DNA of 64,000 nt from an uncultured Pantoea sp. (GTDB lineage Bacteria > Pseudomonadota > Gammaproteobacteria > Enterobacterales > Enterobacteriaceae). Location of the stretch: the NCBI GenBank assembly GCA_966185695.1, contig CBIFUL010000010.1:2718-66717 (forward strand), in the 5' to 3' direction. The position numbers and the translations under genes were made by a program. The notes below the pieces were generated by a model. The model saw only the letters and a program-made list of their open reading frames with translations, was not told the DNA's origin and ran no database searches. This document shows, in pieces, positions 603-4,245 of this stretch (its first letter is position 1; every line of letters begins with the position of its first letter).

Positions 603-727
603 ACCGCGCCCCTCCTTTTCACGTTGATTGAACGGATTTAGGTATAGCAGCTGCGGCGACAATTCGCCTATAAGATAAAGCTATTAATGTGACTAATTCA
701 GAATAAGCAGTTAAAAACTCTGTCTAT

Positions 728-759
728 AAAAAAAGCCGATAACTTTTGTTATCGGCTTT
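728..759 (-). terminator. Rho-independent terminator of the 44-aa ORF
   Basis: aaagccgataac-tttt-gttatcggcttt with an A-run on + (U-run on -). Confidence 0.75.
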
Positions 760-783: not shown

Positions 784-918
784 TTAGATTTTGCACCCTT
801 CGCAATCAGCTTCATCGCTGAGATCGGCTGGCACTTCGTTGGCTTTTTCAGCCGCTTTGGCTTCCGCCTGTTCCAGCTGTGCATCGATATCAAATTCAAA
901 CATATCGTCGTTCATCAT
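784..918 (-). CDS. Unannotated 44-aa acidic microprotein ending in CxxC (MMNDDMFEFDIDAQLEQAEAKAAEKANEVPADLSDEADCEGCKI)
   Basis: Translated by hand, below the ORF-track cutoff; CAGGAGAACG RBS directly before ATG at 918, TAA at 784-786, terminator right after. Confidence 0.75.
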   Translation of the reverse strand: MMNDDMFEFDIDAQLEQAEAKAAEKANEVPADLSDEADCEGCKI

Positions 919-954
919 CGTTCTCCTGAACCGTGAGTAGAAATTTACTGCGCT

Positions 955-1866
955 TTATACCGATTTCCCACGCAGCTTCGCAACCCCATTTACCCCTAAC
1001 AGCACGATCGACCCAATGATAAAGCCGATCACCAGATTGGCGCCGTTGCTGAGCAGCGCGGCAGCGAAGCCACCGAAGCCGGCGCTGTATTCAGTGATGG
1101 CGTGATGCAGCGGCGAGATGCCGTGCACCACAATACCGCCGCCCACCAGGAACATAGCGAGGGTCCCCACCACCGTTAAAATCTTCATCAGCCACGGCGC
1201 GAGCGCCAACAGCGCGCTGCCCACGCCCTGCGCCAGCGTGGAGGATTTCTCGCGCAGCCAGAAGCCCAGGTCGTCGATTTTCACAATCATTGCCACGATG
1301 CCGTAGACGCCAATCGTGACCAGAATGGCAATCCCCGCCAGCACCAGCACCTGATTCAGCAGCGGCGCATCCGAGACGATGCCCAGCGTGATCGCCACAA
1401 TTTCTGCCGACAGAATGAAATCGGTGCGCACCGCGCCTTTTACTTTATCCTTCTCGAATTGTTTAGGATCCTGCTGCGCCAACTTGTCGAGACGCTGCTG
1501 CCGCGCTTCCGGGCTTTGCTCAGCTTTATCGTGCTGCAAGCTGTGCAGCACTTTCTCCACACCTTCAAAACACAAATACGCGCCGCCAATCATCAGCAGC
1601 GGCGTAATCAACCACGGCGCGAAGGCGGAGATCAGCAGTGCCAGCGGCACTAAAATCAGTTTGTTGAGGAAGGAGCCCTTTGCCACGCTCCACACTACCG
1701 GTAATTCGCGGTTGGCTTTAACCCCGGTGACCTGCTGCGCGTTCAGTGATAAATCATCACCGAGCACGCCCGCCGTCTTCTTTGCCGCGACTTTGCCCAT
1801 AACCGAGATATCGTCGAGCAGCGTCGCAATATCGTCCAACAGCGTGAGTAAACTGGTTCCAGCCAA
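955..1866 (-). CDS. yedI: DUF808 family inner membrane protein YedI
   Basis: (L)[38 protein letters not shown] is the YedI N-terminus; likely TTG start at 1866 after AAGGAA. Confidence 0.9.
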
Positions 1867-1880
1867 AATGTTTTCCTTAG

Positions 1881-2153
1881 TTATTCCGGTTCGTGATCCT
1901 GACAACAGGGGCAACGCTCAACCGCCGTCACTGACATATCAGCGATGCCCGCACAGTCCCATTCAACGCGTAACGTGCCGCTCATCTCGCCAGCGTGCAA
2001 ATACTTGCTTACCGGACTTTCCGTCATCCCGCTGATCTCCTCGGTGGCCACCAGCCGATCGCCCACATAAATGCGGGCGGTTGCGTGGGCGTTCACCATG
2101 CGCTCATCGCGCAGTTGATACAGGCGTTTGACCGTCAGTTTGATGCTGCTCAT
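1881..2153 (-). CDS. Hypothetical 90-aa protein with a C-terminal CPCC..H motif
   Basis: ORF fills the gap between vsr and yedI in the same orientation; no family recognised. Confidence 0.6.
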
Positions 2154-2217: not shown

Positions 2218-2691
2218 TCACGGTTGATAGTGATGCAGACCCTGGTGATCGATCTCGCTGCTTGATGCCGCCGCGAGTAACCACTCTTCCAATCGTTCCA
2301 CTAATGCGCCCTCGTCCAGCTGCAATTTGCCGCGCAGCGCGCACTCCCACACAATCAATACCTTCCAGCCGCTGCCGTGCAGCTGCTCGATATAACGCCG
2401 ATCGCGCTCGACGTTACTGTTAATTTTGCCGCTCCAAAATTCCGTGCGCGTTTCCGGCATTTTGAATAAATAGCAGTGATGACGATGCCAAAAACAGCCG
2501 TGGACAAAAATGATGGCTTTCTCGGCGGGCAAGACAAAATCGGGACGGCCCGGCAGCGCTTTGTCCTGCACGCGATAGGTAAAGCCACGATCTTTCAAAA
2601 TCAACGCAATACGCTGCTCAATTGCCGTGTCCTGCGTACGGATGGCGCGCATATTTTTGCTACGAATAGCTTGTGAGTGGACGTCTGCCAT
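2218..2691 (-). CDS. vsr: Very short patch repair endonuclease Vsr
   Basis: MADVHSQAIRSKNMRAI, LPGRPDFV, FVHGCFWHRH, GWKVLIVWECAL; ATG at 2691 after GGAG. Confidence 0.95.
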   Translation of the reverse strand: MADVHSQAIRSKNMRAIRTQDTAIEQRIALILKDRGFTYRVQDKALPGRPDFVLPAEKAIIFVHGCFWHRHHCYLFKMPETRTEFWSGKINSNVERDRRYIEQLHGSGWKVLIVWECALRGKLQLDEGALVERLEEWLLAAASSSEIDHQGLHHYQP

Positions 2692-2844
2692 ATCGTCTCC
2701 TTTTGAAAGGGCTTCTTCAACTTTAGCGGTTTGGGGCAAAAGCGACAGGGCAGGACGAAAAGAGTCTGCTACGCAGCACACAGCGCGGTTTTGCCACGGC
2801 GTGAGGAGTGTTAGCATAGCCGCCTCACTGTTAAGGAAAAACGC

Positions 2845-4245
2845 ATGCTCGCACCCGATCCCGCCGCACCTGCTGCCCCTTCCCCCTTTATTGCTGCTCA
2901 GGATGACGCGACCGCGCTGTTAATGCAGGTACTGGATATTTATGCCGCGCGCGATGTGGTGACAAGCTTAAGCGATGCCGGCGGCCGCGACTGGAACGTG
3001 CCGCGTTTAAATCGCATTCGCCAGGGCAAAAGCGCCGCGCCTGCGCTCAGCGCGGCGGAAGCGGCGGCGCTGCAAGCCTTATTACCGACGCGTCCGGCGC
3101 ATTACGCCAATCCCACCTTTCAGTTTGTGGATCTGTTTGCCGGCATCGGCGGCATTCGTCGCGGCTTTGAGCAGATCGGCGGCCAATGCGTGTTGACCAG
3201 CGAATGGAACAAAGAGGCGGTACGCACCTATAAAGCGAATCACTACAGCTGCCCGCACGCGCATCAGTTCAATAGTGATATTCGCCTGATCACCCAGCCC
3301 GCCGGACTGCGCGATGAACAGGCCATTTACCAGCATATCGATCAGACCTTTCCCGATCATCAGGTGCTGCTGGCCGGTTTTCCCTGCCAGCCGTTTTCGC
3401 TGGCGGGCGTGAGCAAAAAAAACGCGCTGGGCCGCGCACACGGATTTGAGTGCGAAGCGCAAGGCACGCTGTTTTTCGACGTGGCGCGCATTCTCGCCGC
3501 CAAAAAGCCGCCGTTTTTTGTGCTGGAGAATGTCAAAAATCTCAAGAGCCACGATCAAGGCCGCACCTTCGCCATTATCATGGCGACGCTGGATGAACTC
3601 GGTTATGACGTGGCCGACGCCAATGACAGCAGCGCGCCCGACGCCAAAATTATCGATGCACGCCACTTTCTGCCGCAGCATCGCGAACGCATCGTGCTGG
3701 TTGGCATTCGTCGTGACAGCGGCTTAAGCCACGGCTTCTCGCTGCGCGCGCTGAACGCGCTCTATCCGCAGCAGGTGCCCGCGTTGAGCAGCTTGCTGGA
3801 GCCGCAGCCTGATGCGAAATACACCTTGTCGCCCACGCTGTGGAATTATCTTTATCAGTACGCGAAAAAACACAAAGCCAAAGGCAACGGTTTTGGTTTT
3901 GGCCTTAACGATCCGCGCCAGCGCGATATTTGCGTGCGCACGTTGTCGGCGCGCTATTACAAAGATGGCTCGGAGATTCTCATCGATCGCGGCTGGGATC
4001 ACGCCTTGGGTGAAGCCGACTTCCAGCAGGCGGACAATATGGCGCGCCGTCCGCGCCGCTTAACCCCGCGCGAATGTGCGCGCTTGATGGGGTTTGAAGC
4101 GCCGGGCGAGAGCCGTTTCCGCATTCCAGTGTCCGATACCCAAGCTTATAAACAGTTTGGTAATTCGGTGGTGGTGCCGGTATTTGCTGCGGTGGCGCAG
4201 CTGCTTTTGCCGCTGATTGAACAATACCGTCGCCAACATCCGTAG
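2845..4245 (+). CDS. dcm: DNA cytosine-5 methyltransferase Dcm
   Basis: DLFAGIGG (motif I), AGFPCQPFS (catalytic PC), [21 protein letters not shown]; colinear with E. coli Dcm. Confidence 0.95.

What the first reader, a model, noticed from the sequence alone, without database searches (positions are those of the whole stretch)
784..918. Unannotated 44-aa acidic microprotein whose tail mimics the ribonucleotide-reductase C-terminal redox shuttle
Seen: strong RBS, its own terminator, a very acidic body and the end ...DEADCEGCKI-stop. Known: class I RNR alpha subunits end in an acidic flexible tail with a Cys pair that shuttles electrons from thioredoxin/glutaredoxin (E. coli NrdA ends in ...CESGACKI). 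Inferred: this could be a free-standing shuttle peptide, a Trx/Grx decoy or partner, or a small metal-binding peptide. Standard gene callers would miss it.
Basis: partly seen in the sequence, partly recalled or inferred. Interest (0 to 1): 0.55.

Follow-up and report, generated by a model that had tools for sequence, protein, structure and literature searches.

The report
Free-standing ribonucleotide reductase tail microprotein
This Pantoea chromosome encodes a real, strongly conserved 43-residue acidic protein whose second half matches the two-cysteine "recharging" tail of phage ribonucleotide reductases. It probably acts on the cell's DNA-precursor enzyme, but no one has tested that.

Summary
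The ORF is real, at window 784..918 on the minus strand. The conserved start is the second ATG, giving 43 aa.

**Coding evidence.** It has an AGGAG ribosome-binding site, a -10 box conserved across unrelated genomic contexts, and its own terminator. Purifying selection is strong: dN/dS is about 0.09, and 0.05 in the tail.

**Distribution.** Homologues, all annotated "hypothetical protein", occur in Pantoea, Erwinia, Mixta, Tatumella, Serratia, Hafnia, Sodalis and Budvicia. That is 36 of 178 sampled genera of the GTDB family. None were found in E. coli.

**Link to ribonucleotide reductase (RNR).**
- The protein matches the phage family phrog_10239 (function unknown).
- Its C-terminal half aligns with the tails of genuine phage class Ia RNR alpha subunits (NrdA) (hhalign 95.8%).
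- The NrdA of Pantoea phage Phynn ends in exactly DCEGCKI.
- Free-standing versions occur in seven phage records with no RNR of their own, some next to thymidylate synthase, MazG or dUTPase genes.

**Reading.** However, gene callers do find this gene, and the closest model is phage NrdA, not E. coli NrdA. Whether it helps or blocks RNR is untested.

**Earlier scan notes.** This scan had already flagged the same family on phage DNA. I found no publication describing it.

The parts
784..918 (-). Microprotein gene. CDS is 787..915 (43 aa, family-standard start) or 787..918 (44 aa); stop codon TAA at 784..786.
   Evidence: ORF list and sequence. Homologues start at the second Met. dN/dS about 0.09. 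Matches phrog_10239 at E 2.8e-7.
787..831 (-). C-terminal module, residues about 29-43 (P..D.SDEADCEGCKI): an acidic, disordered tail carrying the Cys pair. This is the RNR-alpha-tail-like part.
   Evidence: Invariant D-C-E-x-C-K-I. pN/pS 0.05. hhalign to phage NrdA tails 95.8%. Identical heptapeptide in Phynn NrdA. Predicted disordered by AF2.
871..912 (-). N-terminal conserved motif NDDMFEFDIDAQLE (alternating hydrophobic and acidic residues). Partner unknown.
   Evidence: F6, F8, D9, D11, A12 and L14 are invariant. pN/pS 0.10. No significant likeness to the NrdB tail or to proximal NrdA tails.
923..927 (-). Shine-Dalgarno AGGAG, 7 nt before the conserved ATG at 915.
   Evidence: Read directly from the sequence. 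A purine-rich ribosome-binding site is present in homologous loci.
954..959 (-). -10-like hexamer TATAAA, overlapping the yedI stop codon. Probably the microprotein's own promoter. A possible -35 (TTGCGA) lies at 983..978 with an 18-nt spacer.
   Evidence: A TATA[AC][ACT]-type hexamer lies 27-41 nt upstream of the ATG in 101 of 105 distinct upstream regions, across unrelated contexts. It is kept even where the yedI stop lies further upstream. The -35 and promoter activity are inferred.
724..759 (-). Rho-independent terminator (12-bp stem, GAAA-type 4-nt loop, T-run).
   Evidence: A terminator follows the gene in the other genera too.

Best explanation
This is a genuine, independently transcribed gene for a 43-residue, very acidic and mostly disordered protein. 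Its C-terminal half is a free-standing copy of the flexible redox tail of phage-type class Ia RNR alpha subunits (acidic run, D-C-E-G-C-K-I-COOH).

Most likely mechanism (inferred, not shown): the CxxC pair cycles between dithiol and disulfide. It is reduced by thioredoxin or glutaredoxin, as the NrdA tail is, and exchanges with the active-site disulfide that NrdA forms at each turnover. The protein would therefore act in trans on the cell's RNR as an extra, detachable recharging arm.

The conserved N-terminal FxFDIDAxL motif would provide docking on a partner that is not yet identified.

The family is shared between Enterobacterales chromosomes and phages that have no RNR of their own. This suggests a phage origin and a role in tuning host dNTP supply. 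I favour support over inhibition of RNR, but the sign of the effect is open.
For: Real gene:
- Codon-position pattern and dN/dS of 0.09.
- Ribosome-binding site, conserved -10 and terminator in every context.
- Present in 36 of 178 genera of the GTDB family and named genera in four or five families.

RNR-tail relationship:
- Matches phrog_10239.
- hhalign of the chromosomal family against phage NrdA C-termini gives probability 95.8%, E 7e-9, over the last 22 residues.
- Annotated phage NrdA proteins end ...DSDCEGCKI (Phynn) or ...DCDSCKI (PHA46, Hallingskeid, SP27, CBB, BF and IMG/VR locus L155).
- A profile of the family ranks six phage NrdA tails directly after the protein itself, above all 90,367 six-frame ORFs of this genome.
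- AF2 predicts only one helix (residues 10-25) with both ends disordered, as for NrdA tails. The last ~24 residues of E. coli alpha, which carry Cys754/Cys759, are disordered (PMC4728125).

Link to nucleotide metabolism:
- Free-standing versions lie beside thymidylate synthase and MazG in phage Wellington, directly after dUTPase in Yersinia phage P400, and beside DNA polymerase or primase in Pecta and L153.
- All seven phage records tested that carry one lack RNR alpha, and the five tested lack beta. Phynn, whose NrdA carries the tail, has the enzyme.

Precedent for a redox part working as a separate polypeptide: NrdJb of the split class II RNR (PMC4520616).
Against: - No experiment or complex model shows binding to NrdA, Trx or Grx.
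- The host NrdA and NrdE keep their own Cys-pair tails, so nothing obviously needs complementing.
- The gene is not linked to nrd genes: nrdAB is on contig C15, nrdEF on C26, and this gene on C10.
- It has no NrdR box in Erwiniaceae; only 2 of 136 loci have a plausible one.
- The profile does not retrieve the host's own NrdA tail.
- The relatedness rests on about 22 low-complexity residues.
- The N-terminal motif, the second most constrained part, is unexplained.
Confidence: 0.45

Rival explanations
1. RNR inhibitor or brake, working like yeast Sml1. The free tail would compete with NrdA's own tail for the active site or for Trx/Grx. If the N-motif occupies the beta-tail groove, it could also block beta binding. 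Either way it would lower dNTP synthesis, for example in stationary phase.
For: It shares the same tail relatedness. The host enzyme already has its own tail, so an extra copy could act as a competitor. Many promoters carry TATACT-type -10 boxes without a clear -35; from my own knowledge this resembles sigma-S promoters. Sml1 is reported to block regeneration of R1 that depends on the C-terminal CX2C (PMC6382339 citing Zhang 2007).
Against: Phages that lack RNR and depend on host dNTPs carry the protein inside replication and nucleotide-metabolism modules, where inhibiting host RNR looks counter-productive. The N-motif shows no measurable likeness to the NrdB tail (rank 2909). There is no Pfam hit to any inhibitor family.
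Confidence: 0.2
2. A general thiol-disulfide or metal-binding peptide unrelated to RNR. It could be a Trx/Grx substrate or redox buffer, or a dimer in which two CxxC motifs hold Zn, Fe or Cu.
For: It has a CxxC next to acidic residues, and a central helix that could pair. It has no nrd linkage or NrdR control in this genome.
Against: There are only two Cys. The non-ligand residues E, G/S, K and I and the exact C-terminal position are invariant and match NrdA tails. Phage neighbours are nucleotide-metabolism genes. No Pfam or NCBIfam metal-binding domain was found.
Confidence: 0.15
3. Not a functional protein: either a chance ORF in the 3' region of yedI, a small RNA, or a decaying fragment of a phage nrdA gene.
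For: It is short and of low complexity, with lower G+C than its surroundings (0.47 against 0.59). It has no curated family.
Against: dN/dS is 0.09 with a codon-position signature. The reading frame is intact in all hits from 41 genomes, except two that are split. It has its own promoter box, ribosome-binding site and terminator in unrelated contexts. No Rfam family matches.
Confidence: 0.03

Closest known systems
C-terminal redox tail of class Ia RNR alpha (NrdA), especially the phage type (Pantoea phage Phynn; jumbo phages SP27/PBECO4-like, CBB, BF, PHA46, Hallingskeid)
   Same: Acidic and disordered, with a Pro followed by an acidic run and then D-C-[ED]-[GS]-C-K-I at the very C-terminus. 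The heptapeptide DCEGCKI is identical in Phynn NrdA. Profile-profile probability is 95.8%.
   Different: It is not attached to a catalytic subunit. It has its own promoter and terminator, and a conserved N-terminal FxFDIDAxL motif that NrdA tails do not measurably share. The host NrdA tail has CxxxxC spacing (CESGACKI).
NrdJb of the split class II RNR of Pseudomonas aeruginosa (PMC4520616)
   Same: The part of an RNR that carries out reductive dithiol exchange is made as a separate polypeptide.
   Different: NrdJb is a larger subunit encoded beside nrdJa and is essential, because NrdJa lacks that part. Here the catalytic subunit keeps its tail, the genes are unlinked, and the RNR class differs.
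phrog_10239 (phage protein family, function unknown)
   Same: The window protein matches at E 2.8e-7 over residues 7-43, and the phage member at L153 matches at E 1e-13.
   Different: This copy is chromosomal, sits at a fixed locus between core genes in Erwiniaceae, and belongs to the FEFDID subtype rather than the phage DDFDLD subtype.
Sml1 / Spd1-type small RNR inhibitors of yeasts
   Same: They are small, largely disordered proteins that act on the large subunit and interfere with regeneration by the C-terminal Cys pair (PMC6382339).
   Different: No sequence relationship was found, and there is no evidence here of inhibition. Sml1 does not itself carry the tail motif (my own knowledge).

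Membership tests
phrog_10239 / enterobacterial 43-aa microprotein family | Significant profile match over most of the length | tested here: met
   E 2.8e-7, residues 7-43. One match in the own genome and none in 14 control genomes including E. coli.
phrog_10239 / enterobacterial 43-aa microprotein family | About 40-50 aa with the terminal motif D/E-C-[EDI]-[GS]-C-K-[IVL]-stop | tested here: met
   Alignments A1-A3.
RNR class I alpha C-terminal redox tail | Cys pair within the last ~10 residues of an acidic, unstructured segment | tested here: met
   C39/C42 of 44. AF2 models both ends without secondary structure (helix only at residues 10-25, moderate confidence). The tails of characterized class I/II RNRs are unstructured and carry cysteines that re-reduce the active site (PMC9531940; PMC4728125).
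RNR class I alpha C-terminal redox tail | Sequence relatedness to genuine NrdA tails | tested here: met
   hhalign 95.8%, E 7e-9 over 22 columns. Identical DCEGCKI in Phynn NrdA. Six phage NrdA tails outrank all 90,367 background ORFs. The host NrdA itself is not retrieved.
RNR class I alpha C-terminal redox tail | Part of the polypeptide of a catalytic RNR subunit | tested here: not met
   It is a stand-alone 43-aa ORF with its own signals. No genuine fused forms were found among longer proteins.
RNR class I alpha C-terminal redox tail | Reduces the active-site disulfide and is re-reduced by Trx/Grx | not testable with these tools
   This needs enzyme assays or at least multimer modelling.
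Split-RNR redox subunit (NrdJb-like) | Encoded next to a catalytic subunit that lacks its own Cys-pair tail | tested here: not met
   nrdAB is on contig C15, nrdEF on C26, and this gene on C10. NrdA ends CESGACKI and NrdE ends CVSCAL.
NrdR regulon | NrdR box(es) in the promoter | tested here: not met
   The control box upstream of the own nrdA was found (2 mismatches). No box was found in this locus or in other Erwiniaceae; only L044 and L138 have one plausible box.
Mimic of the RNR beta (NrdB) C-terminal docking tail, in the N-terminal motif | Measurable likeness of the N-motif to NrdB or NrdF tails | tested here: not met
   With the head profile, NrdB ranks 2909 and NrdF 12005 among 47,706 reported targets. 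Only an eye-level pattern (DD-hydrophobic-x-x-F) is shared.
Metal-binding CxxC domains (HMA, zinc ribbon, rubredoxin-like) | Recognisable domain or four ligand cysteines | tested here: not met
   No Pfam or NCBIfam hit at E <= 1. Only two Cys. Dimer-mediated binding could not be tested.

The most novel reading that the evidence does not exclude
Enterobacterales and phages that lack their own RNR share a diffusible 'recharging arm' for class Ia RNR. This would be a trans-acting microprotein that plugs into the host enzyme's thiol relay and sets the rate of dNTP synthesis. It would add a new layer of RNR control in bacteria and a new way for phages to take over host nucleotide supply.
Probability: 0.45. 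Interest if true: 0.8.

Novelty: new variant of a known kind. Interest (0 to 1): 0.66.

Why it matters
RNR is the only de novo source of DNA precursors, and its re-reduction step is a classic control point. In the bacterial systems I know of, the Cys-pair arm is part of the enzyme or, in split NrdJ, an obligatory subunit.

A free, separately expressed arm that coexists with an intact enzyme would be a new regulatory principle for dNTP supply. It is conserved under strong selection in plant-associated and clinical Enterobacterales such as Pantoea, Erwinia, Serratia and Hafnia, and it is copied by phages that have no RNR.

It would also give a function to a widespread "hypothetical" microprotein and PHROG family. 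The idea is cheap to test with standard RNR assays.

Tried and rejected
**No annotation found**
- Pfam and NCBIfam gave no hit.
- Rfam had no family in the region.
- ESM Atlas returned only unnamed "hypothetical protein" clusters.

**Searches that first missed or excluded things**
- tblastn of the P. stewartii variant P0064 against phages and plasmids found nothing, probably because of low-complexity masking. This nearly hid the phage link.
- The window protein has no plasmid hit.
- There is no DNA-level match in 5,426 complete E. coli genomes.
- No genuine fused or longer forms exist; the few hits are frameshift or miscall singletons.

**Range limits**
- No credible match in about 280 genomes of the other families of the GTDB order.
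- No protein ending C-E-x-C-K-I in 400 other Gammaproteobacteria; the three hits are chance short ORFs.

**Ideas rejected**
- Conserved operon partner: the upstream gene differs by lineage (yedI/DUF808, ylaC, GNAT, glpM, DUF305, nhaB).
- NrdR control: rejected for Erwiniaceae.
- N-terminal motif as a copy of the NrdB tail or the proximal NrdA tail: MAFFT lays the proteins out collinearly, but profiles give no signal.
- EF-hand, FtsZ-tail and SSB-tail likenesses were considered by eye only and dropped.

**Literature and tools**
- Literature searches for the motif, for locus tags and for free-standing RNR tails found nothing relevant.
- PMC1892911 (Zhang 2007) is not held.

Full report
**1. Observation**

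The minus strand of window 784..918 holds an ORF reading MMNDDMFEFDIDAQLEQAEAKAAEKANEVPADLSDEADCEGCKI.
- AGGAG lies at 927..923, 4 nt before the first ATG and 7 nt before the second.
- Nearly all homologues begin at the second Met, so the product is most likely 43 aa.
- A 12-bp hairpin plus T-run follows at 759..732. The hairpin alone (centroid) is -16.9 kcal/mol; the 65-nt stretch folds at -19.3 kcal/mol with z = -3.9.
- The protein has 14 Asp/Glu against 3 Lys and a computed pI of 4.05.
- The gene lies 36 nt downstream of yedI (DUF808, 955..1914) and upstream of a yodC-like DUF2158 gene.

**2. It is a real gene**

A protein search found 41 clusters, nearly all 43 aa, from Pantoea, Erwinia, Mixta and Paramixta.

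Whole-genome six-frame searches gave the following:
- 23 of 41 close relatives carry it.
- 41 of 201 genomes, in 36 of 178 genera, of the GTDB family carry it.
- No credible match was found in about 280 genomes of the other families of the order.

Named carriers:
- Pantoea, Erwinia, Mixta, Tatumella, Winslowiella and Kalamiella
- Serratia (many species), Gibbsiella, Chania and Edaphovirga
- Hafnia
- Sodalis and Biostraticola
- Budvicia and Limnobaculum

All are annotated "hypothetical protein". E. coli lacks it: none of 14 control genomes match, and there is no DNA match in 5,426 complete E. coli genomes.

Across 136 loci (114 distinct DNA sequences):
- Entropy per codon position is 0.32 / 0.28 / 1.11.
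- pN/pS is 0.18 overall, 0.10 in the N-terminal motif, 0.32 in the middle and 0.05 in the tail.
- Median dN/dS is 0.09.

**3. It is an independent transcription unit**

The upstream gene changes with lineage:
- yedI in Erwiniaceae
- ylaC in Serratia
- a GNAT gene or glpM in Budviciaceae
- a DUF305 gene in Sodalis
- nhaB (divergent) in Hafnia

Despite this, 101 of 105 distinct upstream regions have a TATA[AC][ACT]-type hexamer 27-41 nt before the ATG. It is TATAAA in Erwiniaceae and is kept even where the yedI stop lies further upstream. Elsewhere it is TATACT or TATAAT. Every locus also ends in a hairpin terminator.

That the TATACT boxes point to sigma-S is only my inference.

**4. Anatomy**

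Invariant or near-invariant residues fall into three groups:
- an N-terminal D-D-hydrophobic-F-[DE]-F-D-I-D-A-x-L motif
- a single Pro at position 29
- the terminal D-C-E-[GS]-C-K-I

AF2 with the family alignment gives one helix (residues 10-25) and disordered ends, with mean pLDDT 70. The layout is two short linear motifs joined by a helical spacer.

**5. What the tail is**

The genome's own NrdA ends ...DDLAPSIQDDGCESGACKI and NrdE ends ...GCVSCAL. Among the genome's ORFs, an acidic run followed by C-E-x(1-3)-C-K-I at the C-terminus occurs only in NrdA and in this protein. A family profile does not retrieve the host NrdA.

*How the phage link was found.* Earlier notes of this scan reported similar microproteins in phages. 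My first phage search had been negative, so I re-tested the link:
- A scan of viral contigs found five loci.
- One of them (L155) is a 784-aa phage NrdA ending ...LPDLPDEDDCDSCKI.
- Its C-terminus retrieves 98 phage records, and nearly all of the listed hits are annotated as RNR alpha.

*What the phage NrdA tails look like*:
- The NrdA of T4-like Pantoea phage Phynn ends ...KPDAADDSDCEGCKI, the identical heptapeptide.
- The jumbo phages PHA46, Hallingskeid, SP27, CBB and BF end ...DCDSCKI.

*How strong the match is.* Profile-profile comparison of the chromosomal family (A2) with these NrdA C-termini (A5) gives probability 95.8% and E 7e-9 over the last 22 columns. A family profile ranks six phage NrdA tails immediately after the protein itself, ahead of all 90,367 six-frame ORFs of this genome. 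The protein also matches phrog_10239, function unknown, at E 2.8e-7.

**6. Free-standing phage versions**

| Phage record | Product | Neighbours |
|---|---|---|
| Erwinia jumbo phage Wellington | gp259, 75 aa | between thymidylate synthase gp257 and MazG gp261 |
| Erwinia jumbo phage pEa_SNUABM_11 | 63 aa | not informative |
| Erwinia jumbo phage Kwan | hit only; sequence not read | not examined |
| Erwinia phage phiEaP8 | 106 aa, with a different N-terminal domain | upstream of the terminase genes |
| Yersinia phage P400 | unannotated ORF | directly after dUTPase |
| Erwinia phage Pecta | 72 aa | beside DNA polymerase |
| IMG/VR locus L153 | 42 aa | after the primase/helicase gene |

- All seven records tested lack RNR alpha (PF02867).
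- The five tested lack RNR beta (PF00268).
- Phynn, the positive control, has the enzyme.
- Kwan was not tested for RNR genes.

In this small sample, the tail is either part of a phage NrdA or free in a phage without RNR. That pattern points to the host's RNR as the target.

**7. Mechanism**

*Established background:*
- In E. coli these are Cys754/Cys759, in the disordered last ~24 residues (PMC4728125).
- In the split class II enzyme, a separate subunit (NrdJb) performs the dithiol exchange (PMC4520616).

*Inference:* the microprotein's CxxC is reduced by Trx or Grx and exchanges with the NrdA active-site disulfide in trans.

*Direction of the effect:* I favour a supporting role because RNR-less phages carry it in replication and nucleotide modules. 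A competitive, Sml1-like brake (PMC6382339) cannot be excluded for the chromosomal copy, whose enzyme already has a tail.

*Not shown:* any binding, redox activity, or expression.

**8. What remains unexplained**

The N-terminal motif is almost as constrained as the tail. MAFFT lays the whole protein collinearly on jumbo-phage NrdA tails, pairing FEFDIDAQL with GEVDVEKVL. However, neither hhalign nor a head-only profile supports likeness to proximal NrdA tails or to the NrdB/NrdF docking tails. Its partner is unknown.

There is no nrd linkage and no NrdR box in Erwiniaceae.

**9. Novelty**

I found no paper on this family. It exists only as "hypothetical protein" and an unnamed PHROG.

Earlier AI notes of this scan had flagged the same family on phage DNA and mentioned its chromosomal relatives. 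This report:
- documents the chromosomal member
- demonstrates purifying selection
- establishes its own transcription signals
- maps its taxonomic range
- ties the tail quantitatively to genuine phage NrdA tails

Noticed in passing
window 1881..2153 (-): A 90-aa ORF with no Pfam or NCBIfam hit ends in a Cys-rich tail (...[12 protein letters not shown]) and overlaps the start of yedI. Homologues lie within about 1.2 kb upstream of the microprotein in Erwiniaceae, and also in a Hafnia-like group where the intervening gene differs (L044, L048).
   Followed up: partly
L044 and L138, about 105 nt upstream of the microprotein ATG: There is a single NrdR-box-like palindrome (CCACTAGATGTAGTGA / GCACTATATGTGGTGA). 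It is 14/16 identical, as reverse complement, to a box upstream of this genome's nrdHIEF region. It occurs only in this Hafnia-like group, not in Erwiniaceae.
   Followed up: partly
P0064 (Pantoea stewartii, WP_282958443.1) and L153 (IMG/VR 50-kb phage): A second, phage-type subtype of the microprotein (M..DDFDLD...ADCEGCKI) occurs in a P. stewartii chromosome and in a complete 50-kb phage. It is probably carried on a prophage there. It was not seen in 300 sampled genomes of the family.
   Followed up: partly
window 2218..2817 (-) and 2845..4245 (+): The vsr-like endonuclease and a 466-aa cytosine-5 DNA methyltransferase are arranged divergently, 27 nt apart. In E. coli, dcm and vsr overlap and point the same way (the E. 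coli arrangement is from my own knowledge).
   Followed up: no
L158 (Erwinia phage phiEaP8, 441..761) and L166 (Erwinia phage Pecta, 2333..2551): The terminal module ...D.GDCEGCKI is attached to unrelated N-terminal regions (106 aa and 72 aa). The tail therefore behaves as a portable module in phage small proteins.
   Followed up: partly
window 784..918: G+C of the microprotein gene is 0.47, against 0.59 for the window. This could reflect foreign (phage) origin, or simply the Asp/Glu/Lys/Asn-rich composition.
   Followed up: no
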